IMG/VR virus record: IMGVR_UViG_3300028887_000078 | Source: a virus | Taxonomy: Duplodnaviria; Caudoviricetes | Strand: one strand, 5' to 3' | Length of the DNA: 64,000 bases | Shown: one piece after another, positions 9,582-30,276 of the stretch | Numbering within the stretch: position 1 is the stretch's first letter | How the letters are laid out: each line of letters starts with the position of its first letter | Position numbers and translations under genes: made by a program | Notes under the pieces: model-generated | Seen by the model: the letters and a program-made list of their open reading frames with translations, nothing else | Told to the model about the DNA's origin: nothing | Database searches by the model: none

Positions 9582-9611
9582 AGTCCTTTTATTGAATATA
9601 ATGTAAAATCA

Positions 9612-10091: not shown

Positions 10092-10125
10092 TTTTCTTTC
10101 TTTTTGTTGAATATAATGGAATTTT

Positions 10126-10641: not shown

Positions 10642-10690
10642 AGTTTTTCTTGAATATAATGGAAACTGAAAAAGACCGAAAAACAACCCG

Positions 10691-10698: not shown

Positions 10699-10769
10699 TA
10701 TTGTCGGTATTGATATATCGGCGATATATTGTAGTTGAATTTAGTATTAACCCTTAAAACTCTAATTGG

Positions 10770-11906
10770 ATGCAAATTCAGAAAGTATGTGTAAGTGATG
10801 GTGACACATTGGAACAAAAAACCATCAATGTCCCCGTTGAGAACGGCGAGAAAATCATTTCAACAGAACCATACATTTTAGACTGTATCAACAAGTACAG
10901 GGCAAGTTGGGGCGGAAGCACGCTTGAGGACATCTCCGACTTTGAAAAGTCAGGAAGCAACCAGCTGCTTGAAAACGTGACCATCGAAAGGACTGACGAC
11001 AAGTTCGTGATAGACCTCAACAAGAAGTATGACTACCAAATGCCCGTTGAGAGCGAACCCGAAGAAGTAGTGTCGAGTTTCGATGTCGGTGTCAAGTACA
11101 AGATTCCCGTCGCCGCAAACACGAAAAATGGCATCAACATTTCAATCAAGGACTCAATCAAACTTGCGGTCAAGAACGAATTGCGTGCCGCCGCAGTGAC
11201 GCACAACACGTCCAATGCCTATTCAGCGCATATAGACGAGTGTATCAACGGAGGTTACTATGTGACCATTCAGGGAGTGAAGTGCTTTATGCCTGGCAGC
11301 ACGGCAAGTCTTTACAAACTGAAGGACTTCGAGAGCATTGTCGGAACCGATGTGATGGTCATACCCACTATGTACAATATGCAGCGGGACATCGTTGTCG
11401 TTTCGCACACCGCTTTCCTTGAGGCAATCAAACCGACCGTGCTTGACAGGGTTATGCAGGAAGAGAGGGACAATGAGTTCACAGGTGTTGTCACGATGCG
11501 CAAGCACGAATATTTGCTCATCACATTCAACGAGTGTCTTGCAGGAAAACTGTCCTATGCCGATATGGACGACGAGACGAAGGAACTTTTCAACAGCAAT
11601 ATGATAGAGGTTGAAAAGACCGAACTCAAGTTCAAAATCGACTATGAGCAGAACGGTCAGTTGCTTCTCACACAGACGTTCAGGACGCGCAAGATATGGG
11701 ACGAGAAGGTTGACGAGGAGTTCAAACCGAAATCGGTTATGGACGGCGTGGTTGTCGGGAACTCGAAGAAGTTCACCCTCGTGCAGTTGAAGTACGGCAT
11801 CATCGGAACGCTCCCGTACAATGAAAGCGCAACGAACGGCGAACATCTGAAAGTCAAGATTGTGAGCGTGGACAAGGAATCAAGAAAAATAAAACTTGCA
11901 CTATGA
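10770..11906 (+). CDS. Ribosomal protein S1-like multi-S1-domain protein
   Basis: GGYYVTIQGVKCFMPGS..IVVSH and VKIVSVDKESRKIKL S1 signatures; late promoter at 10691. Confidence 0.8.
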   Translation: MQIQKVCVSDGDTLEQKTINVPVENGEKIISTEPYILDCINKYRASWGGSTLEDISDFEKSGSNQLLENVTIERTDDKFVIDLNKKYDYQMPVESEPEEVVSSFDVGVKYKIPVAANTKNGINISIKDSIKLAVKNELRAAAVTHNTSNAYSAHIDECINGGYYVTIQGVKCFMPGSTASLYKLKDFESIVGTDVMVIPTMYNMQRDIVVVSHTAFLEAIKPTVLDRVMQEERDNEFTGVVTMRKHEYLLITFNECLAGKLSYADMDDETKELFNSNMIEVEKTELKFKIDYEQNGQLLLTQTFRTRKIWDEKVDEEFKPKSVMDGVVVGNSKKFTLVQLKYGIIGTLPYNESATNGEHLKVKIVSVDKESRKIKLAL

Positions 11907-12115
11907 TAACAGAAAACAAACCGACAATCACGAATGTGGTGTACTCCTCCATAACGAAGGACTTGATTGTAACCTATTCGGATGGCAACATAACCAAGTA
12001 CCTGAATGTTCCGCAGGATGTGTACGAAAGCATCATCAACAGCGGAAAGGTCGTTTCGGACTACCTGAAGGAGAACCTTGACGCGAACTACAGGAAATTA
12101 CAAAGCGTTCTGTGA
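11903..12115 (+). CDS. KTSC-domain protein
   Basis: LIVTYSDG..KYLNVPQDVYESI pattern, 70 aa. Confidence 0.7.
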   Translation: MITENKPTITNVVYSSITKDLIVTYSDGNITKYLNVPQDVYESIINSGKVVSDYLKENLDANYRKLQSVL

Positions 12116-12168
12116 AAGATTCAGCATTTCAAGGTTGAATATGAAATGAAACAATTATAAATAAAATG

Positions 12169-12296
12169 TAGGTGTGGGACGCACCGAATTTAAGCGTGTG
12201 GAGATGCGGGAAATAATTTTGAACGCTATAAAGCATCCAAAACAATCAGCATCGTTGAATCACGAAGATTCCACCTTTAGGGTGGAAACAGTTCAC
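12169..12296 (+). ncRNA. Orphan TnpB omegaRNA / IS200-IS605 right-end-like element
   Basis: GTGGGACGCACCGAATTTAAGCGTGTGGAG...TCGTTGAATCACGAA, subterminal hairpin TTCCACC-TTTAG-GGTGGAA, end ...AGTTCAC; no tnpB in window. Confidence 0.6.
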
Positions 12297-12326
12297 AAAG
12301 TGTTTAACATAAAAAAATAAAATACT

Positions 12327-13433
12327 ATGTCAGCAAAAGACGATACAACAAAACAGTATGAGGAAGACCTCATCAAAGAATTTTCCGAAAGAAACGAAAC
12401 CTCAAACGAAGTGCCTATGGAACTCGGCGCGGGCAATGTGTACGGCAGACCCGACGAACACGAACCTGTGCGAGACCTCGGCAAGGTGAAGAACCCAGGA
12501 AACCGCCCGAATTTTATGACAAGGGATGAGTTGGACAACGACCCTGAAGTGCAGCGTATGAACTCGCTTCTGAACTATGTTCGGGTTCCGATTGAGAACT
12601 TCCCGTCGGAAGGTCGTTTCTACGCGGACGACATAAGCGTGCACATCCGCGCCTGCCGTGTGGGTGAAATCCGCGAATACTCAATGATGGACGAAAGCAA
12701 TCCGAACGACATCATCGACAAGATGAACTATATGCTTGCAAACTGCACGAAGGTTTCCTTCGGAGGTATGCCCGGCAGTTACAAGGACTTGCTTGAGCAC
12801 GACCGTTTCTATCTCATCAAGAGGATTCAGGAACTCACGTTCAAGAACGGAGAGACCGTCATCAACATCCCTGTTCCTGACGGTGCGTGCAAGACACCGG
12901 GTTGCAAACCGCAGACGGAGGTGAAACTGACGAGCGATATGCTCGAAAGACCCGAACCTGACCCGCAGTTGGAGAAATACTACGACCCCGAAAACAAGTG
13001 CTATTCAATCAAGACGAAGCACTACGGCACAATCCAAATCGCCCCGCCGACCATCGGTGTGACAAGCATTGTGAGGGATTGGGCAATCGAAAGGACGCAG
13101 AACCAAAAGCATTGGGACCAAGCGCTCGTGCAAATCATCCCGTTCTTCCGTCGTGATTGGCGCCAGTTCAAGGAGAAGGACGTGTTCAACCTCGCAACCG
13201 AGTTCGAGAATTGGGACGCCACGAAGTTCACCCTCATCTACAGAATGATTGAAAAAATAAATGCGACAGTCGGAATGTCCCCGAACATCCACGTCCGTTG
13301 CGAGTCTTGCGGAGGGGATATGGAAATCCCCGTGATGTTTCAGACCACAAGTGACGATGGACAGGAAGTACGAGGAGGATTCAAATCGCTATTTGTTCCG
13401 CCTATTTCAAATCAACTTGACGAACTTCTTTAG
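12327..13433 (+). CDS. Baseplate hub protein, T4 gp26-like
   Basis: FPSEGRFY, DLLEHDRFY, PPTIG and CESCG motifs; late promoter at 12156. Confidence 0.65.
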   Translation: MSAKDDTTKQYEEDLIKEFSERNETSNEVPMELGAGNVYGRPDEHEPVRDLGKVKNPGNRPNFMTRDELDNDPEVQRMNSLLNYVRVPIENFPSEGRFYADDISVHIRACRVGEIREYSMMDESNPNDIIDKMNYMLANCTKVSFGGMPGSYKDLLEHDRFYLIKRIQELTFKNGETVINIPVPDGACKTPGCKPQTEVKLTSDMLERPEPDPQLEKYYDPENKCYSIKTKHYGTIQIAPPTIGVTSIVRDWAIERTQNQKHWDQALVQIIPFFRRDWRQFKEKDVFNLATEFENWDATKFTLIYRMIEKINATVGMSPNIHVRCESCGGDMEIPVMFQTTSDDGQEVRGGFKSLFVPPISNQLDELL

Positions 13434-13726: not shown

Positions 13727-14378
13727 TGGAATTATCCATTTTGGTATTGTTGCATCAAATCAAAAAATATCAATGGAATGGATGTCTGTTAATTTTCCGA
13801 TACTTCAAATGTTTCTTGCAAATAATCACCAACTATAATTTCATTGTTTGAAATGACATTTATGATGTTGTCAACATCATTTGTGAATGCTGTACAAACC
13901 GTTTCGATTTTTTCTAAATCTGAAATGTTTTCTTTTTTGAATTTTTCTGCGGTAATTCTTTTTATCATTTCAGATTCATTATAATCATAATCGGATATAA
14001 GCATCCTTTTCAATGTTTTTTCTTTGCTGATATTGTCTTTAATATCAAGGAATTTCAAATTGTCTATACTTGCTTTTAATTCATTTATCCAATGTGTAAA
14101 ATTTATATTTGTGCAGTCAAATAATTGACAGTATTTACACAAACACCAATTTTCAACAAGTTGAAAACGTAGTCCATCTACACGTTCTTTGTATTTTTTC
14201 AATGGAACTGCCATTTCATATATCATTCCAATGCGGTTAATCGTATCGGATACGGACTCATTTGTCATTTCAGAAACCTTTTTAATGTGCGGCATAGCAT
14301 TATTTTTATATCTCTTTATTGAATATAATAAAAATCTTGCAAAAATACGCTTTTTGCAAGATTAAAGGTACAATTCCG
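13727..14378. mobile_element. Inverted-repeat-bounded AT-rich single-gene cassette A
   Basis: IR copies at 13727-13750 and 14356-14378 in opposite orientations. Confidence 0.55.
13789..14295 (-). CDS. AT-rich hypothetical protein with MPHIKKVSEM leader
   Basis: ORF inside cassette A. Confidence 0.85.
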   Translation of the reverse strand: MPHIKKVSEMTNESVSDTINRIGMIYEMAVPLKKYKERVDGLRFQLVENWCLCKYCQLFDCTNINFTHWINELKASIDNLKFLDIKDNISKEKTLKRMLISDYDYNESEMIKRITAEKFKKENISDLEKIETVCTAFTNDVDNIINVISNNEIIVGDYLQETFEVSEN

Positions 14379-14397
14379 TTTTTTTTTGTTTTCTGTA

Positions 14398-16928: not shown

Positions 16929-16959
16929 GTTGATATATCGCCGATATATCTCCAAACTT

Positions 16960-17806: not shown

Positions 17807-18683
17807 CGGAATTATCCCTTTTAGTCTTGTGAATATGTTGATGAATTTTGCTTCAGATTGAACCACCGTGACATTGAAAGTGCTTGGGAACACTTGTTGG
17901 GATTGGGAATTAACGGGGTGGCGGCGTGACTATATTTCAAACATTATCTGAAATTTGTCTTGATGAAATCAAAAGTTTTATTTGTTTAAGCATCCTAAAA
18001 TCAATCAGATGCTATGCCAAATCCCAATATTTTAGATTTTTTATCGCTATTGAATAATTTGAATGTGAAGAATAAAATCCACAAGTAAAATACAACCTTG
18101 TTGCGCTTTGGTTTTGTCTATAACTTAAATTGCCAAACCCTGTATTTATTACAGTTGCGCCTCCAACAATTTTAAGTTCGTGTTCAAAGTGATACCAAGT
18201 GTTCAATGAATGGGTGTCCATACCGATAAAAGCGGTGAACGGAGGCCAAAACGCATATTGGTTTTTTGACACAGATGCCAAAGTAAATATACTATTGTCC
18301 CCTTTTCTTGTGACATTAGCGTCAAATTCTCTTTTAATCCATAGGTCTGTCTGCGCTATTGGGTACAGATTCACATTGTTTATCCACGCAACATTGCTGT
18401 CGCCGTTACTACCAGTTTGTGAAAACACATAGGCATTCAACGAACTGTTCCAAGCATATTTTCCATTGTTATACAAGGACGCACCGCTTATATGGTCTGT
18501 GATGTCGCCATAGGACAACGGCATATCCAATATAAGTAGTTGTTGTGGGGGGGGGCAATGGTGGCGTATCGGCATAGTATTTAGTTTTTGATATTTATAA
18601 AGTTAATTTTTCAAAAAAGTTGTATTTTTGTGACGTGAAAAATCAATCATAAATATATTACAAGACTAAAAGGGATAATTCCG
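17807..18683. mobile_element. Inverted-repeat-bounded AT-rich single-gene cassette B
   Basis: Perfect 24-bp IR CGGAATTATCCCTTTTAGTCTTGT at 17807-17830 and reverse complement at 18660-18683; extra copy at 17719-17741. Confidence 0.65.
18012..18575 (-). CDS. Late, beta-rich hypothetical protein (possible virion-surface or lectin-like)
   Basis: N/S/Y/W-rich; late promoter at 18592-18599; inside cassette B. Confidence 0.75.
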   Translation of the reverse strand: MPIRHHCPPPQQLLILDMPLSYGDITDHISGASLYNNGKYAWNSSLNAYVFSQTGSNGDSNVAWINNVNLYPIAQTDLWIKREFDANVTRKGDNSIFTLASVSKNQYAFWPPFTAFIGMDTHSLNTWYHFEHELKIVGGATVINTGFGNLSYRQNQSATRLYFTCGFYSSHSNYSIAIKNLKYWDLA

Positions 18684-18708
18684 TTTATTTTTTACAGGTG
18701 GCGTTCGG

Positions 18709-19476: not shown

Positions 19477-19534
19477 TTTTCTCAATTTTTCATTATTTAT
19501 AGATTTTTTTATTATATTCAATAAAAGAACAATT

Positions 19535-19888
19535 ATGAAAAAGAAAATCAGAGCAAAATATCCGACACTCTTTTGTGATGAAAAGAAAGGCAGGGACAAC
19601 AAAGATTATTACAACACAAGTGGAAGACCGTGCGAGAGCGGATATACGGTGAGAGTGCCGTCACTGAAACGCAGCAAAAAGATTTGGGACAATTTTTACA
19701 AGTTGTTCCCATACATCAAGAACTCGTTGATGAACAACCGATATGTGTACCGTTTCGGTGAACCGACTTTGGTCGGTAATGTCTATGTGTGCAAGGAAGA
19801 GCGTGTACACGCGCTGAACCCGTTTAATGGCAGAGTACACGGTGTAGGACGCAGAATCCGAACGACAAAATTTTTGAAAACTTGGTAA
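19535..19888 (+). CDS. Hypothetical protein
   Basis: Start MKKKIR after early-type promoter at 19511. Confidence 0.8.
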   Translation: MKKKIRAKYPTLFCDEKKGRDNKDYYNTSGRPCESGYTVRVPSLKRSKKIWDNFYKLFPYIKNSLMNNRYVYRFGEPTLVGNVYVCKEERVHALNPFNGRVHGVGRRIRTTKFLKTW

Positions 19889-19909
19889 TAAAAACAAAAA
19901 GATAAAAAT

Positions 19910-20143
19910 ATGAATGAAGTGGTCACAGTAAAGAAAGACCGTTATTATATGTGCATAATGGACTGGCACAAATTGGGTTCGTCTTTCACAGAAGGAAAGG
20001 TTTACAAGTGTCACAAAGACCGTTGTATGTATGATGACAATCACTCCGAGAAGGCTTCGGTCGGTATGTTGTTCCGTCTTGCCACAAAGGATGAGATTAG
20101 AGAACATAAGAGAATGTTGAAACTTCAAAGTCGCAGAATCTGA
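19910..20143 (+). CDS. Hypothetical protein
   Basis: Ends inside repeat copy 2, where CGA has become TGA. Confidence 0.8.
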   Translation: MNEVVTVKKDRYYMCIMDWHKLGSSFTEGKVYKCHKDRCMYDDNHSEKASVGMLFRLATKDEIREHKRMLKLQSRRI

Positions 20144-20203
20144 ACAACGAAGTTTTTGAAAACTTGGTAAAAAATAAAACAAAAATAACAAAAACAAGCA
20201 AAT

Positions 20204-20482: not shown

Positions 20483-20605
20483 CAAATGGCATAATAAATG
20501 CACTTGCAACGTCAAGCGCGGAGGCGGTGCTGTTCGGGATGGTTGTGGTCATAGAATCCGAACGACAAAATTTTTGAAACTTGGTAAAATTAAAAACAAC
20601 AAACT

Positions 20606-21534: not shown

Positions 21535-21933
21535 ATGATAACCTCAACCCCCATATTGAAAGAATGCTGCTGTGTCAACAATGAAACAGATAACAGCATA
21601 GTGTATTGGAAGTTCGGCGACCGCATAGACTTCATTCTGTATGTCTATGCCGCGAGGGATATATGGGGCGGAAAGGTCGAACAGGACGGGTTGTGCGAAA
21701 AATTGGGTGCAAGGATAAAAAGTCTCAAGAATGAAGTCCTTATAGACGGCATTGCTGGACGTTTCACGGAAGTCAAAAGATACAGCAGGATGGTCGCGTT
21801 GAACGGGTCTATACCGTCAAGTGATGAATTTGCCACAAACTTCAATATGGGCGTATTCAAAAAGTTGAAAAGGCGGAAATTGAGCGTGATATACCTTGAA
21901 CTGACGGAAGAAATCGGTCTGATTGTATGCTGA
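21535..21933 (+). CDS. MISD-tag array protein
   Basis: Starts MITSTPILKEC. Confidence 0.85.
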   Translation: MITSTPILKECCCVNNETDNSIVYWKFGDRIDFILYVYAARDIWGGKVEQDGLCEKLGARIKSLKNEVLIDGIAGRFTEVKRYSRMVALNGSIPSSDEFATNFNMGVFKKLKRRKLSVIYLELTEEIGLIVC

Positions 21934-21949
21934 CAAAAATATGATTGCA

Positions 21950-22369
21950 ATGATAAGCGACAATGACGTATTGAAACAAACCTGTGAAATGCTGCCCGAC
22001 AACCTCGTGCATTGGGTTGATTCCGATTGCAGAGGTGTGGCGATGCTGCGCTTTTCGTTCACGGTTAGCACGGTGTACGGGGCGCTTTGGAGGAAGATGG
22101 ACATTGAAACGTTCTATGAGCAAATGAAGCACGCCGTGGACGGAGGCGACTCGAACGTAATCTATGTAGGAAGATGGGTTGCACACATAGACAGGATTGC
22201 TCTTGTCGGCGGTTGCATCACGGCGGACTGTCATTTCAATGGGAGTCAGTGGCAAAATGATATTTTGGAACACCTGTGCCGCCTTGAACTCGACGGGTTC
22301 CAAATAAGGAAATTCGGTTATGACACGGTTAATTTTGCAATGACACATCACTACATTTTGGATTATTGA
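21950..22369 (+). CDS. MISD-tag array protein
   Basis: Starts MISDNDVLKQTC. Confidence 0.85.
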   Translation: MISDNDVLKQTCEMLPDNLVHWVDSDCRGVAMLRFSFTVSTVYGALWRKMDIETFYEQMKHAVDGGDSNVIYVGRWVAHIDRIALVGGCITADCHFNGSQWQNDILEHLCRLELDGFQIRKFGYDTVNFAMTHHYILDY

Positions 22370-22378
22370 GGAATATAA

Positions 22379-22810
22379 ATGATAAGCGACAACAACATAC
22401 TGAAAGCAACCTGCGAACACACCCCAATCGGAAACGGCAACTCGATGATATGTTGGGTTATGACTTCGTATGTGGTGAACTTCCGCATTTTTCTGCGCGA
22501 CGTCGTGACTTTGCCTGACGGGTACATAAAAAGCGCAGGTGAACTTGTCTATAAACTGCTCAACAGGATTGACAGCGGGTCGAACAAAGTTGAGTTCGGG
22601 GAGTTCGGGGAGTTCGGCGACGGGACTGTCACTAATGCGTGGAAATCCCCTTGGAGTGAGAACAACGTTGCGATTGACGGGTATTTCCAATTCAGTTCAA
22701 GTAAGGAAGCGGAGGCATTTTACGAAAGAATAACGTCAAGATACGCCACCTCCGACACATTGAACTTCTTTATGCTCGATGTAGGGAAGTATTGCGGTCA
22801 GGTGTCCTAA
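22379..22810 (+). CDS. MISD-tag array protein
   Basis: Starts MISDNNILKATC. Confidence 0.9.
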   Translation: MISDNNILKATCEHTPIGNGNSMICWVMTSYVVNFRIFLRDVVTLPDGYIKSAGELVYKLLNRIDSGSNKVEFGEFGEFGDGTVTNAWKSPWSENNVAIDGYFQFSSSKEAEAFYERITSRYATSDTLNFFMLDVGKYCGQVS

Positions 22811-22840
22811 TCCATTTGAAAGTGAAATCCGATTTTTGAT

Positions 22841-23239
22841 ATGATAAGCGACAACAACATATTGAAAGACTGCTGCTTCAAAACGAATGAAAACGGGGCG
22901 TACTTCAGCATACAAGGGTGCAGAGTCCATTTCTTTTTCTCCGTCGCACCTCCAAGTCTTATGACCGCCGACGAATTTATCAAAAAGCTGCAAGACAGGA
23001 TTTGCACAGGAAACAACCAAGTGATGATTTCCGAAAGTGAGCAGGAAGGTACGGTGGATGAGGTTTACGAGTGTTACGACGGGACGGTTCTGATTGTTGG
23101 AAGCATCCATTTCGACAATTATGCGTTTGCTTACAAGGCATACGAGACATTGGAGAATAGTTTTGGCAAGCATCCGCCTGTCGCGACCTGCATAGAAAAA
23201 CTCGACGGACTTTGCTGCGTCATTTTGAAACAAGATTGA
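22841..23239 (+). CDS. MISD-tag array protein
   Basis: Starts MISDNNILKDCC. Confidence 0.9.
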   Translation: MISDNNILKDCCFKTNENGAYFSIQGCRVHFFFSVAPPSLMTADEFIKKLQDRICTGNNQVMISESEQEGTVDEVYECYDGTVLIVGSIHFDNYAFAYKAYETLENSFGKHPPVATCIEKLDGLCCVILKQD

Positions 23240-23249
23240 ACAACAACCG

Positions 23250-23657
23250 ATGATAAGCGACAACAACATATTGAAAGGCAGTTGCAGTTTCCACGAAAAG
23301 GGAAGCGAAATCCATTTTTGGACAGTCAACGGTTCCGTCGGGTTCCATATTTTCGTGACCGATATGCAGCATCAAGGTATGACGCTCTCGGAGTTCAACC
23401 GAAAGATGAACGTCCTTCTGAAAGAGGGTCGAGACGAAATCGTTATCGGGGACATAAGAAACGGAACGGTCGTGAATGTCTTTACATACACGATGCCTGG
23501 GGGGACGCTCTGCGTCCTGATTGAGGGTGTATGGTTATGCACTACGGAAAGCGAACGCGCGAAAATATACAACTACCTGTCAGACGAGTTCGGCGAAAGA
23601 AAACCAACGGTATGGTGTATCGAGAACATTGCGAATATTTGCGCGACATTGGTATAA
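23250..23657 (+). CDS. MISD-tag array protein
   Basis: Starts MISDNNILKGSC. Confidence 0.9.
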   Translation: MISDNNILKGSCSFHEKGSEIHFWTVNGSVGFHIFVTDMQHQGMTLSEFNRKMNVLLKEGRDEIVIGDIRNGTVVNVFTYTMPGGTLCVLIEGVWLCTTESERAKIYNYLSDEFGERKPTVWCIENIANICATLV

Positions 23658-23668
23658 AACATAGAATT

Positions 23669-24124
23669 ATGATAAGCGACAGCAAGATTTTATCCAATTT
23701 GGTGAATGCGGACGACGGTTATGCACACATAGATTATTGGGGTGATTTCGACGGAATGCGCATACGCTTCGAGGTGAGGGCGAAAAGGGTTTTCAGTTTC
23801 TGCGGAAATATGGTTGAATGTTCAGTATTTGATGGTTACAACAGCATACAGAACATCCTTTTGAAATCCAACGACACAATCAAGTTCGTGTCAGGCAAGG
23901 ACGTCCGTCACGGAACGGTCGAGCAATGCGCGGTCATCAACGGGGAACTGCGCATAGTAGGGTATATGCGCGACGTGTGGTATTCTTATGATTCACACGG
24001 GTCGCGGATTGAGAAACACGTTGAAAGATTTTCAAGGATTGTGGACTCCCTGAACACACATTCGTTTGTGTGCATACACGAGTTATTCTTTCCGAGTGAA
24101 CACATAGAGGTGAAAAACATTTGA
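23669..24124 (+). CDS. MISD-tag array protein
   Basis: Starts MISDSKIL at 23669. Confidence 0.85.
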   Translation: MISDSKILSNLVNADDGYAHIDYWGDFDGMRIRFEVRAKRVFSFCGNMVECSVFDGYNSIQNILLKSNDTIKFVSGKDVRHGTVEQCAVINGELRIVGYMRDVWYSYDSHGSRIEKHVERFSRIVDSLNTHSFVCIHELFFPSEHIEVKNI

Positions 24125-24129
24125 ATGTT

Positions 24130-24552
24130 ATGATAAGCGACAGCAAGACATTGAAATCCGCAATAGACTTCGACGAGCGTGTGGATTGGAGTTACAACGA
24201 GCAAACCTGCGACCTGTACATTTCCGTCACCGTCAAAACGGCAAACGTTTCCTATGACATTCCAATCGGGGAATATGACCCTTTGTGTGAATGCAGGGAG
24301 TTGGTTTCCGAAGAGAACCCCCCGCCGCTCGTTTTCGGTGTCGTCACTGTTATAGTCGGCGAGGTGACGGACATATACGATTTCGGAAGTTGTCTTGTCA
24401 TAAAAGGCGTGCTGCCGAACGTGAATCCCCGTTCAAGGATTGCGTTCCACATAGATGACCTGAACAAAAACGGTTTCAACGTTGTCATACGCAAATACAT
24501 AGGTCGCCGAGCATACAGGTTCGACATACTTGAACGAAAGGAAACTATATGA
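24130..24552 (+). CDS. MISD-tag array protein
   Basis: Starts MISDSKTLK at 24130. Confidence 0.85.
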   Translation: MISDSKTLKSAIDFDERVDWSYNEQTCDLYISVTVKTANVSYDIPIGEYDPLCECRELVSEENPPPLVFGVVTVIVGEVTDIYDFGSCLVIKGVLPNVNPRSRIAFHIDDLNKNGFNVVIRKYIGRRAYRFDILERKETI

Positions 24553-25732: not shown

Positions 25733-25772
25733 ATTCGTTTTGTATATTTTTCTGTTATTATTTATAGAAACT

Positions 25773-25791
25773 GATATATCGGCGATATATC
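25773..25791. repeat. Dispersed double palindrome GATATATC-N3-GATATAT(C/T), representative copy
   Basis: Copies at 3736, 10712, 16932, 25773, 31289, 37637, 44981, 50491, 55962, 63219. Confidence 0.95.
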
Positions 25792-26239
25792 AGGCATTGG
25801 TTAGTTTGTGAATACTCTTGACGAACTCTTCCACTTCAAAATTCTTTGAATACAGAATACGGAACCTTTCTGCATAGAACCCGTTTTCAATCAAATATTC
25901 CTTGATTTCGTTTTTGAGCGTGTCGCACTTATTGGTCAGTTCATAGTCCACACCTCCTGCAAAAAACGCATTTGCGGAGTCGGTTTGCATCTGTATGATT
26001 TTTGAAAGGCGTTCCGACGGATTGGTCGCGTCATACAATATGAAAACATCATCGGTCAATGCTCTCATATATCGTGTGGTGTCCGTGTTGTTCACCGAAC
26101 AATCCAACACATTGGTGCCGTATATGCAGTTCTTGTCATATATGACGGTCAGTCTGATTTCAATTTTTTCACGGAACTTGTCGCAGGCGGTTTCAAATTC
26201 GCTTTTTGCGCTTATGATGTTTGTTTCAGTCAGTTTCAT
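25790..26239 (-). CDS. MRITES-tag family hypothetical protein
   Basis: Starts MKLTET. Confidence 0.85.
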   Translation of the reverse strand: MKLTETNIISAKSEFETACDKFREKIEIRLTVIYDKNCIYGTNVLDCSVNNTDTTRYMRALTDDVFILYDATNPSERLSKIIQMQTDSANAFFAGGVDYELTNKCDTLKNEIKEYLIENGFYAERFRILYSKNFEVEEFVKSIHKLTNA

Positions 26240-29508: not shown

Positions 29509-29639
29509 TGTTTTTTGGTTTTAGGTTACGAGAGGCGGTTGTCTGTGTTTTGCTGCGTGCCTCTCAAAAACGCAACTGTGGAAATCCCACATTTGAATAT
29601 AATAAAAAAAATCGAAAATTTGCATTTGTGGAAAAAAAA

Positions 29640-30187
29640 TGGAATTATTCCCTTTAGTCTTGTAAACCAAATTCACAATAAGTTGAATTGGGAAACACAT
29701 AGCAAACGCTTCACCTTTGTGGTGGAAATGGTTTTGCTTTCATTGTGCGTAGATATGATATGGCAGATGGAGATGTTTCGGTTGTCGTATAAATAATGAA
29801 AATATGATTTGAAACTATGGCGCACATTAAAAGAATTGATGAATTACAATTTTCTGCTTCATCAAATGCACTTGATAATCTAATAAAATTGGAAGACGTA
29901 GAACGTAACATTTCAGACTGGGTTTGGTTGACAGAGGAAAGAAAAAGGTCAAAGACATTTGAAAGTAATATGCGTAAACGAATGTTTGATGTTTATTTTG
30001 ATTATGATTCACACGACATAACCTGTGTAGTTTTCTACGATAAGACGAGCAATCCAAATTATAAGAATCCAAAAATATTGAATGTTGACGGCGCTTCTGT
30101 TTCATTGGAAGATGTTATTGAAGAAATCAAGGTGCAGATGGGTTATTAAAACGAAACAATTTTTACAAGATTAAAGGTATAATTCCG
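29640..30187. mobile_element. Inverted-repeat-bounded AT-rich single-gene cassette C
   Basis: IR copies at 29640-29663 and 30165-30187 (opposed); extra copy at 30247-30270. Confidence 0.6.
29817..30149 (+). CDS. Late AT-rich hypothetical protein with MAHIKRIDEL leader
   Basis: TATAAATA at 29788; inside cassette C. Confidence 0.85.
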   Translation: MAHIKRIDELQFSASSNALDNLIKLEDVERNISDWVWLTEERKRSKTFESNMRKRMFDVYFDYDSHDITCVVFYDKTSNPNYKNPKILNVDGASVSLEDVIEEIKVQMGY

Positions 30188-30276
30188 AAAAATTTTAATG
30201 TACAGACAAAAAACGCAGGTGTATTGAACCTGCGTTTTTGTTTTTTACAAGACCAAAGGGGACAATTCCGAAAAAA

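What the first reader, a model, noticed from the sequence alone, without database searches (positions are those of the whole stretch)
12156..12320. Orphan TnpB omegaRNA-like element directly behind a late promoter
Seen: TATAAATA at 12156-12163, then within a few bases a structured ~128-nt segment. It has a GGTGT/GCACC hairpin, GATGC/GCATC and CGTG/CACG complementarity, a TTCCACC-TTTAG-GGTGGAA hairpin and a ...AGTTCAC end. Established: IS200/IS605-family right ends have a subterminal hairpin and a TCA(A/C)-type terminus, and this region encodes the TnpB guide scaffold with the guide taken from the 3' flank. No tnpB or tnpA is adjacent. Inference: either an IS remnant or a domesticated trans-acting guide RNA expressed late. 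The predicted guide is AAAGTGTTTAACATAA (12297-12312), which is also the leader of the gp26-like gene.
Basis: partly seen in the sequence, partly recalled or inferred. Interest (0 to 1): 0.72.

Follow-up and report, generated by a model that had tools for sequence, protein, structure and literature searches.

The report
Guide-RNA mini-transposon in a rumen phage
A 195-base jumping element sits just before this cattle-gut phage's baseplate hub gene; it has lost its RNA-guided nuclease gene (tnpB) but keeps its ends, a phage late promoter and the nuclease's guide-RNA scaffold, which is a known kind of element (a PATE that encodes an omegaRNA) in an unusual host.

Summary
Window 12102-12296 is a 195-nt insertion. 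Ten related phages lack it, and so do two near-identical strains in other cattle-gut metagenomes (precise empty site). Its last 132 nt (12165-12296) are 86% identical in translation to the C-terminal tail of full-length TnpB proteins. Both its ends match a tnpB-only element in a viral contig (L019), so it is that element type minus about 1.2 kb of tnpB. More distant relatives also carry a Y1 TnpA, which makes this IS200/IS605. All left flanks end in TTAC except one orphan copy (TAAC), and nearly all right ends read ...AGTTCAC. The retained 3' part folds into five helices with strong covariation, and a model built from it finds the 3' ends of distant tnpB genes. The TATAAATA box comes from the element's left end and now sits a few bases before helix 1. 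No tnpA or tnpB lies in the 64-kb window. tnpB-less copies recur in phage contigs, once beside a full-length tnpB. Expression of the RNA and its use by a TnpB supplied in trans are inferred. Guide-encoding PATEs are already published. This scan had noted this same stretch before.

The parts
11903..12115 (+). 70-aa KTSC-domain gene. Its last codons (from 12102) and its stop codon TGA (12113-12115) are now supplied by the element's left end.
   Evidence: Pfam KTSC PF13619, E = 9e-8. In relatives the gene ends ...QSV-stop about 20-35 nt before the hub ATG.
12098..12101 (+). TTAC: the target motif just 5' of the left end, and the predicted TAM for the cognate TnpB.
   Evidence: Left flanks end in TTAC in the window, L019, L020, L021, L023, L050 and metagenome copy X3 record 9. 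The TAM role is inferred from published IS200/IS605 logic.
12102..12296 (+). 195-nt non-autonomous IS200/IS605 mini-element (PATE-like).
   Evidence: A DNA contig with about 98% identical flanks (runs X3 and X4, probably one data set filed twice) skips exactly 195 nt, 12106->12302, with a 3-nt ambiguity; the X5 contig joins 12109->12312. Ten relatives lack it. Both ends match L019.
12102..12164 (+). Left end (LE). It holds AAAG (12115-12118) just 5' of a subterminal hairpin (12119-12125 / 12134-12140).
   Evidence: 81% identical over 58 nt to the LE of the full-length element in L019 (1406-1462). The hairpin is read from the sequence. The DNA-guide role of AAAG is recalled from IS608 work and was not tested.
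12156..12163 (+). TATAAATA, a T4-type late-promoter box inherited from the LE. The predicted transcript start is about 12168-12171.
   Evidence: 19 copies against 1.6 expected, nearly all just upstream of genes. L019's LE has the same box about 17 nt before its tnpB start. The start position is inferred from T4 spacing.
12165..12296 (+). Remnant of the last ~44 codons of tnpB, which is the omegaRNA scaffold region. It has five helices: 12171-76/12180-85; 12195-98/12261-64; 12203-10/12246-53; 12216-22/12236-42; 12269-76/12280-87.
   Evidence: 83-86% identity to the tails of TnpB proteins P0002, P0004 and P0005. Covariation: 94% of cells paired and 14 of 34 pairs with compensatory changes, against 0-3 in slid controls; 32 of 34 pairs over 30 sequences. 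Model hit at 12162-12296, 138.6 bits.
12269..12287 (+). Right-end subterminal hairpin. It is helix 5 of the scaffold and the presumed TnpA-binding hairpin of the RE.
   Evidence: Stem sequences differ between homologues but pairing is kept: 7 of 10 pairs have compensatory changes in A1. The loop TTTA and the flanks ACGAAG / AGTTCAC are conserved.
12293..12296 (+). TCAC: the element's terminal motif. It differs from TTAC by one base, so the occupied site would not carry the TAM.
   Evidence: The ending ...AGTTCAC is kept in all but two of about 26 homologues listed. The only window match to TTAC plus guide within 3 mismatches is this junction, with TCAC.
12297..12316 (+). Predicted guide segment. 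It is the ancestral flank: the displaced gene tail (C)AA AGT GTT TAA plus the spacer before the hub gene.
   Evidence: It matches L003 and the empty-site contigs. The empty alleles differ from it at guide position 5 (C instead of T). The guide role is inferred.
12327..13433 (+). Baseplate hub gene (gp26-like), downstream with no terminator in between.
   Evidence: phrog_150 baseplate hub and Pfam T4_baseplate, both weak. No + strand terminator-like site in 11800-12600.

Best explanation
Identity (close to certain). Window 12102-12296 is a 195-nt non-autonomous IS200/IS605-family mini-element of the PATE type. It arose from a tnpB-only element like the one in L019 by deletion of about 1.2 kb. 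The deletion joins the left end, just after its T4-type late promoter, to the last ~132 nt of the element. Those 132 nt are the tail of tnpB, which encodes the omegaRNA scaffold, plus the right end. The element inserted 3' of TTAC, inside the last codons of the KTSC-domain gene.

Mechanism (inferred; my odds are about 50%). Late in infection the TATAAATA box starts a transcript within a few bases of helix 1. The transcript runs through the scaffold into the flank AAAGTGTTTAACATAA... and on into the hub gene. A cognate TnpB of the P0002/L019 type, made by a full-length element elsewhere in the phage, in a co-infecting phage or in the host, would bind the scaffold and keep about 16-20 nt of flank as guide. 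The complex would then cut element-free alleles that read TTAC followed by that flank. Recombinational repair from the occupied genome would copy the mini-element in, so it would spread by RNA-guided homing between co-infecting phages. Transposition to new TTAC sites would need a Y1 TnpA acting in trans on the two end hairpins. A side effect, whether or not the RNA works, is that the element gives the hub gene a canonical late promoter and a 163-nt structured leader.
For: - Insertion and empty site.
- tnpB tail homology.
- Both ends match full-length L019, and L019's LE carries TATAAATA.
- Y1_Tnp and TnpB Pfam domains in relatives.
- TTAC at seven left flanks and ...AGTTCAC at the right ends.
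- Five-helix structure with strong covariation, including G-U pairs that exist only on the + strand RNA.
- The model built here finds the 3' ends of distant, non-training tnpB genes (L024, L013) and many more.
- The same LE-scaffold architecture sits at a second site (X3 record 9), so the mini-element moved after the deletion.
- Other tnpB-less mini-elements keep the whole scaffold, more than TnpA should need.
- One of them (L050) lies in the same phage contig as L019's intact tnpB.
- A metatranscriptome contig identical to the window bridges 12213-12395.
- Meers et al. state that PATEs often encode omegaRNAs that TnpB acts on in trans: PMC10055086.
Against: - No tnpB or tnpA lies in the 64-kb window, and I could not search the rest of the genome. 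Earlier scan notes place intact tnpBs 41-46 kb upstream, but they appear to be other lineages and I did not check them.
- The RNA evidence is contigs from an RNA library. They cannot show a start, an end or a strand, and DNA carry-over is possible.
- No Rfam family matches.
- The window's LE hairpin has a G-T mismatch, and its first bases differ from the family's usual AAAAAT. The RE hairpin has one arm a base shorter than in relatives. Mobility may therefore be impaired.
- The two empty-site alleles seen carry a mismatch at guide position 5.
Confidence: 0.7

Rival explanations
1. Inert relic. The element is the same IS200/IS605 mini-element, but it no longer works as a guide-RNA gene or a transposon. 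Its only present effect is cis: it supplies the late promoter and a long structured 5' leader for the hub gene.
For: No cognate tnpB or tnpA in the window. The LE start is altered and the LE hairpin is imperfect. No + strand terminator lies between the element and the hub gene, so the transcript reads into it, and relatives lack a canonical TATAAATA before the hub gene. Pure right-end fossils of this family exist, for example L046.
Against: All five helices are intact in the window copy. Several tnpB-less copies in other phage contigs and metagenomes keep the whole 130-nt scaffold, although TnpA should need only the terminal hairpin. At least two differently built mini-elements exist, and one lies beside an intact tnpB.
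Confidence: 0.3
2. A small late protein gene. The open frame 12174 (GTG) or 12204 (ATG) to 12320 would encode a 38-48 aa protein.
For: An open frame of 48 codons follows the promoter.
Against: The frame is the tail of tnpB. Its last 8 codons run into ancestral non-coding flank. In most full-length relatives the frame stops inside the RE hairpin loop, and the middle of the tail is poorly conserved as protein while base pairing is conserved. It has no Pfam or PHROG match.
Confidence: 0.03
3. A DDE-type MITE or transposase-less IS1595 cassette, inserted with an 8-bp target duplication (AAAGCGTT / AAAGTGTT).
For: An 8-nt near-repeat (7 of 8) flanks the insert. IS1595-type cassettes with 8-bp duplications are reported in this genome.
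Against: There are no terminal inverted repeats beyond 5-6 nt. The IS1595 inverted repeat of this window (GGAATTATCC...) is absent. Homology to L019's LE runs right up to TTAC. Other copies show no flanking repeat.
Confidence: 0.02
4. A cis-regulatory leader, such as a thermosensor or a protein-binding 5' UTR, evolved for the hub gene and unrelated to mobile DNA.
For: It is a structured RNA between a promoter and a gene.
Against: It is absent from all relatives and from near-identical strains. The same structure sits at tnpB 3' ends in unrelated gene contexts.
Confidence: 0.02

Closest known systems
PATEs (palindrome-associated transposable elements) of IS200/IS605, including the omegaRNA-encoding PATE-like elements of Geobacillus stearothermophilus (Meers et al. 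2023, PMC10055086; term from Dyall-Smith et al. 2011, PMC3119063)
   Same: It has no intact gene and keeps the LE and RE with their subterminal hairpins. It derives from a tnpB element, and it keeps the guide-RNA scaffold, so it would depend on TnpB and TnpA supplied in trans.
   Different: It lives in a large cattle-gut phage rather than a bacterial chromosome. The LE carries a T4-type late promoter that the deletion has placed a few bases before the scaffold. It sits inside a gene's last codons and re-encodes them.
IS608 of Helicobacter pylori (the mechanistic reference for IS200/IS605; details recalled from Barabas et al. 2008, not re-read here)
   Same: Target TTAC 5' of the LE. AAAG sits directly 5' of the LE hairpin. 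The hairpins at the two ends resemble each other. The right-end terminal tetranucleotide differs from the target. The cleavage site lies about 18 nt from the LE hairpin and about 8-9 nt from the RE hairpin.
   Different: The right end is TCAC rather than TCAA. There is no tnpA or tnpB in the element. The IS608 features are recalled, so this resemblance is a lead and not a test.
ISDra2 TnpB omegaRNA (reRNA) (Karvelis et al. 2021, PMC8612924)
   Same: The scaffold is encoded by the 3' end of tnpB and runs to the right end. The guide is the flank beyond the right end, and the TAM equals the transposon's target motif.
   Different: There is no sequence or Rfam match. The TAM here would be TTAC, not TTGAT. 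The nuclease gene is missing from the element.
Free-standing homing endonuclease genes of T4-type phages (seg, mob; Edgell, Gibb and Belfort 2010, cited in PMC13565253)
   Same: A small selfish insert between conserved phage genes, present or absent among close strains and expressed from phage promoters. It is expected to spread by cutting the empty allele during co-infection.
   Different: Target recognition would be by RNA, the nuclease would be supplied in trans, and the element also has transposon ends.
Transposase-less IS1595-type cassettes in the same genome (earlier scan report e1-5760812)
   Same: Small non-autonomous inserts that carry a late-promoter box and vary between strains.
   Different: Those have long inverted repeats (GGAATTATCC...) and 8-bp duplications. 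This element has neither.

Membership tests
IS200/IS605 (non-autonomous, PATE-type) | Subterminal hairpins at both ends and no long terminal inverted repeats | tested here: met
   LE hairpin at 12119-25/12134-40 and RE hairpin at 12269-87. The RE stem is kept by compensatory changes. Only a 5-6 nt inverted match exists at the termini.
IS200/IS605 (non-autonomous, PATE-type) | Insertion 3' of a fixed tetranucleotide, with a precise empty site | tested here: met
   TTAC precedes seven independent left ends. Empty-site contigs skip exactly 195 nt.
IS200/IS605 (non-autonomous, PATE-type) | No target-site duplication | tested here: inconclusive
   In the window the first 8 nt of the LE (AAAGCGTT) resemble the right flank (AAAGTGTT), and in L019 6 nt do (AAAAAT). 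Five other copies show no repeat. LE homology to L019 reaches TTAC, which argues against a true duplication.
IS200/IS605 (non-autonomous, PATE-type) | Full-length relatives encode a Y1 (HUH) TnpA | tested here: met
   L020 and L021 were scanned and carry Y1_Tnp PF01797 (E = 1e-29 and 2e-24) divergent from tnpB. L023 has a homologous 138-aa ORF that was not scanned. The closest relative, L019, is tnpB-only.
IS200/IS605 (non-autonomous, PATE-type) | No intact protein-coding gene inside the element | tested here: met
   Only a 44-codon tnpB tail remains.
TnpB omegaRNA | Encoded by the 3' end of tnpB and running to the transposon's right end | tested here: met
   12165-12296 aligns to residues 398-440 of P0002 and ends at the RE. 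The DNA is 86% identical to L019 2689-2824.
TnpB omegaRNA | Conserved secondary structure supported by covariation | tested here: met
   A1: 94% of cells paired, 14 of 34 pairs compensatory, 0 of 500 shuffles reach the observed values. A2 (fitted to the model): 92% paired and 32 of 34 pairs compensatory, against 34-43% paired in slid controls.
TnpB omegaRNA | Match to a curated omegaRNA covariance model | tested here: not met
   No Rfam 15 hit at gathering score, and nothing relevant at E <= 10. I do not know whether Rfam holds a model for this TnpB clade. The model built here recovers distant tnpB 3' ends.
TnpB omegaRNA | Transcribed, bound by TnpB, and directs TAM-dependent DNA cleavage | not testable with these tools
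   The only RNA evidence is contigs from an RNA library covering 12213-12395 and diverged copies.
T4-type late promoter | TATAAATA box at about -10 of late genes, over-represented and placed just upstream of genes | tested here: met
   19 copies against 1.6 expected; 16 of 19 lie 5-32 nt before a co-oriented ATG. Promoter activity itself was not tested.

The most novel reading that the evidence does not exclude
The mini-element is a stand-alone, late-expressed guide-RNA gene that a phage-borne TnpB uses in trans as an RNA-guided gene drive or marker-exclusion weapon. It would cut the KTSC/hub junction of co-infecting phages that lack the element and convert them. The C-for-T change at guide position 5 in the empty alleles would then be an escape variant. 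This would be RNA-guided 'intronless homing' between viruses, with guide and nuclease on separate mobile elements.
Probability: 0.25. Interest if true: 0.75.

Novelty: new member of a known kind. Interest (0 to 1): 0.5.

Why it matters
The published role of TnpB is homing: cutting the empty site so that the transposon is copied back. Phage co-infection is a natural setting for that, and here the parts are easy to see. There is a mini-element that is little more than a promoter, a guide scaffold and two ends. Occupied and empty alleles exist in near-identical phage strains from different cattle-gut samples. Intact cognate nuclease genes occur in other phage contigs, and a tnpB end of the same family appears in one of the runs laid here. 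This gives a defined TAM (TTAC), guide and target for a direct test of RNA-guided homing between viruses, and of whether guide-only elements parasitise nuclease-bearing ones. It also shows a transposon end adapting to its viral host by carrying that phage's late promoter, which now also drives a structural gene. As a kind of element it is not new, because guide-encoding PATEs have been described in bacteria.

Tried and rejected
- Rfam: the whole window at gathering score, and 11800-12700 at E <= 10, gave nothing relevant.
- INPHARED phages, blastn 'distant': no match for the 2.5-kb region and only a 21-nt chance hit for the insert.
- No second copy of the insert in the window, by blastn or by the covariance model.
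- An exact 28-mer of the RE is not in IMG/VR.
- The window's whole genome is not held, so I could not look for a cognate tnpB outside the window.
- My first reading was a moron or MITE with a 10-nt target duplication and a small ORF. I dropped it once the tnpB-tail homology and the LE homology up to TTAC appeared.
- IS1595 cassette ends were compared and do not match.
- The stronger fold of the minus strand (z = -3.96) is probably the complement of the same helices plus flanks. The conserved G-U pairs favour the + strand RNA.
- The hub protein was not found in the TnpB-bearing viral contigs, which are fragments, so I could not examine their KTSC/hub junctions.

Full report
**1. What is there**

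The box TATAAATA lies at 12156-12163. It is a real signal in this genome. There are 19 copies against 1.6 expected, and 16 of them lie 5-32 nt before a co-oriented ATG. The one in question lies 163 nt before the next start codon, the longest such gap.

The 211-nt spacer (12116-12326) separates a 70-aa KTSC-domain gene (11903-12115; Pfam) from a gp26-like baseplate hub gene (12327-13433). The fold of the single sequence is unremarkable on the + strand (z = -1.7). No Rfam family matches.

**2. It is an insertion with a precise empty site**

Twelve related loci, from ten or so distinct contigs (40-84% identity in the hub protein), were fetched from IMG/VR and metagenomes. In every one that covers the junction, only about 20-35 nt separate the KTSC gene's stop from the hub ATG.

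In public cattle-gut runs, a 9,056-nt DNA contig whose flanks are about 98% identical to the window joins 12106 to 12302. It skips exactly 195 nt, with a 3-nt ambiguity. It appears in runs X3 and X4, which are probably one data set filed twice. A second run (X5) joins 12109 to 12312 across the letters TAACAT. So near-identical strains exist with and without the insert.

The closest relative (L003) and the empty alleles show that the sequence right of the insert is ancestral. It reads (C)AA AGT GTT TAA, the old Gln-Ser-Val-stop tail of the KTSC gene, followed by the old spacer.

**3. What the insert is**

Read in frame from 12165, the insert's last 132 nt are 83-86% identical to the extreme C-terminal tails of three full-length proteins of 427-472 aa. 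These carry the OrfB_IS605 and Cas12f1-like TNB domains, so they are TnpB. By tblastn this is the only TnpB-like match in the 64-kb window (E = 1.5e-17), and there is no tnpA.

A full-length relative with DNA in hand (L019, an IMG/VR contig of 124 kb) matches the insert at both ends:
- L019 1406-1462 is 81% identical to window 12098-12154. This is the left end.
- L019 2689-2824 is 86% identical to window 12165-12299. This is the tnpB tail plus the right end.

The window element is therefore that element type with about 1.2 kb (nearly all of tnpB) deleted. L019's left end carries the same TATAAATA box about 17 nt before its tnpB start. So the box in the window belongs to the transposon end, and the deletion junction lies within about 12156-12165.

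More distant relatives (L020, L021, L023; TnpB 60-64% identical to P0002) also have a divergent gene of about 137 aa. In L020 and L021, which I scanned, it carries the Y1_Tnp domain; L023's homologous ORF was not scanned. That places the family in IS200/IS605.

**4. The ends**

Seven independent left flanks end in TTAC: the window, L019, L020, L021, L023, L050 and metagenome copy X3 record 9. One orphan in L028 has TAAC, with a changed tetranucleotide before its LE hairpin.

All but two of about 26 right ends listed read ...AGTTCAC. In the window the element therefore ends in TCAC, one base away from TTAC. That matches the published TAM/TEM logic, in which the occupied site lacks the nuclease's motif.

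The left end has AAAG directly 5' of a subterminal hairpin. The right end has ACGAAG, a hairpin and then 8-9 nt. As I recall the IS608 literature this is the same layout, but I did not re-read it.

**5. The retained 3' part is a conserved structured RNA**

I aligned six homologous 3' ends (A1). The predicted consensus has five helices and 34 pairs.
- On A1, 94% of cells pair, against 35-49% when partners are slid by one to three columns.
- 14 pairs show compensatory changes, against 0-3 in the slid controls, and no shuffle out of 500 reaches the observed values.
- Several conserved G-U pairs exist only on the + strand. This favours an RNA in the tnpB sense over a DNA hairpin or an antisense RNA.

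A covariance model built from A1 finds a single copy in the window (12162-12296, 138.6 bits). Outside its training set it also finds the 3' ends of distant tnpB genes: L024, whose TnpB is 36% identical, and L013.

A search of IMG/VR with a right-end motif, followed by the model, gave 32 more matches. On that alignment, which is fitted to the model and so leans its way, 92% of cells pair and 32 of 34 pairs show compensatory changes.

**6. Guide-only copies recur**

Of the model hits with enough upstream sequence, about 13 have an open frame of 389 aa or more running into the scaffold. About 7 have only 33-92 codons.

Three are complete mini-elements:
- L028 5086-5218 has an LE, a short tnpB remnant, the scaffold and an RE.
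- L050 has an LE after TTAC, a TATAAATA box, the scaffold and an RE. It lies in the same 124-kb viral contig as L019's intact tnpB. A phage carrying both a nuclease gene and a separate guide-only element is therefore observed, not just imagined.
- The short proteins P0006-P0008 are frames called across L050-type copies. They have three different continuations after the right end, which means three insertion sites.

In the metagenomes, a copy with the window's own LE-scaffold junction (X3 record 9, about 90% identical) sits after another TTAC next to an IS1595-type repeat. So the mini-element moved after the deletion.

**7. How it most likely works**

Shown:
- An insertion with a precise empty site.
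- Derivation from a tnpB element of the IS200/IS605 family.
- An intact, covarying scaffold, with a late-promoter box directly upstream.
- No + strand terminator before the hub gene.
- A contig in an RNA library, identical to the window, that bridges 12213-12395. This shows presence in the library, not transcription.

Inferred:
- With T4-like spacing, the transcript starts at about 12168-12171, one to three bases before helix 1. No 5' processing would then be needed.
- A cognate TnpB supplied in trans binds the scaffold and keeps about 16-20 nt of flank as guide.
- The complex cuts alleles that read TTAC followed by that flank, which are the empty sites of co-infecting phages.
- Repair from the occupied genome then copies the element in.

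I put about 50% on this and about 30% on the element being an inert relic that merely donates a promoter and a long leader to the hub gene. The main argument for function is that several tnpB-less copies keep the full ~130-nt scaffold, although transposition should need only the terminal hairpin. The main argument against is that no cognate nuclease has been shown in this phage.

**8. Unexplained detail**

The first 8 nt of the window's left end (AAAGCGTT) match the right flank at 7 of 8 positions (AAAGTGTT). They are identical to the empty-site alleles, and they differ from the family's usual start (AAAAATGTT in L019 and X3 record 9; L021 also starts AAAAAT). As a result the KTSC protein keeps its Gln-Ser-Val tail and gains one Leu before a stop codon supplied by the LE.

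L019 shows a similar 6-nt coincidence, and its host gene stops at the same LE-borne TGA. Five other copies show nothing of the kind.

My best guess is patch conversion of the LE start by an empty allele, through the short homology TTACAAA...GTT, during phage recombination. That is speculation. A true 8-bp duplication is unlikely, because homology to L019's LE runs up to TTAC.

The empty alleles carry C where the guide has T at position 5. That could be plain polymorphism or an escape change.

**9. Comparison and novelty**

The closest known things are PATEs, the gene-less derivatives of IS200/IS605. Meers et al. write that PATEs 'often encode omegaRNAs' that TnpB from other elements must act on in trans (PMC10055086). 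The kind is therefore known.

What is particular here:
- The host is a large cattle-gut phage with T4-type late promoters.
- The transposon end carries the phage's late-promoter box, now butted against the scaffold.
- The insertion into a gene's last codons is nearly silent.
- Occupied and empty alleles occur in near-identical strains.

This scan had already noted this same stretch from an overlapping window (that follow-up is withheld), as well as other tnpB and IS605 elements in this genome and in other phages. I used those notes as leads only.

**10. Limits**

The run search and the read-laying tool were each limited to one call, and only contigs were available, not raw reads.

Noticed in passing
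window 10710-10729, 16930-16950, 25771-25792: A 20-nt perfect palindrome (TGATATATCGSCGATATATCA) occurs three times. Two copies lie within about 12 nt of a TATAAATA box (10691 on the + strand, 25759-66 on the - strand). It could be an operator or a protein-binding site at some late promoters.
   Followed up: no
window 9584-9606, 10099-10121, 10642-10664, 14311-14333, 29593-29626; inverted at 19506-19526: A recurring motif, TTGAATATAATG/A with a T-rich lead, lies next to the starts of minus-strand genes. It may be a second promoter class (early or middle) of this phage.
   Followed up: no
window 13728-13753, 17807-17833, 18660-18696, 29641-29666, 30244-30276, 14364-14387: Copies of a ~24-39 nt inverted repeat (GGAATTATCCC.TTTAGTCTTGT) bracket small gene cassettes. 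These are the IS1595-type transposase-less cassettes of an earlier report. One metagenome copy of the mini-element (X3 record 9) sits directly after such a repeat.
   Followed up: partly
window 19850-19900, 20132-20182, 20550-20600: The 3' end of one gene is repeated three times (75-84% identity), each copy followed by a new gene. This is another case of inserted genes bracketed by a copied gene tail.
   Followed up: no
window 21931-24156: A tandem array of six genes share a near-identical 5' end (ATGATAAGCGACA...) but have diverged bodies.
   Followed up: no
L028 5057-5410 (minus strand), contig IMGVR_UViG_3300025677_000011: A second, tnpB-less element lies in the same 41-kb contig as a full tnpA+tnpB IS605 (L020). 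Its left flank is TAAC instead of TTAC, and the tetranucleotide before its LE hairpin is TAAG instead of AAAG. This may be co-variation of the DNA guide and its target.
   Followed up: partly
L019 1406-1424 and 2821-2830: In L019 the full-length element also sits in the last codons of a gene. That gene now stops at the same LE-borne TGA as the KTSC gene in the window, and the LE's first 6 nt equal the right flank.
   Followed up: partly
L030 (CAVIUT010000073.1, binned as Eggerthellaceae): The only hit in 185,579 species genomes for the scaffold's 5' signature is a 10-kb MAG contig that begins inside a tnpB of this family. It may be a mis-binned phage contig.
   Followed up: no
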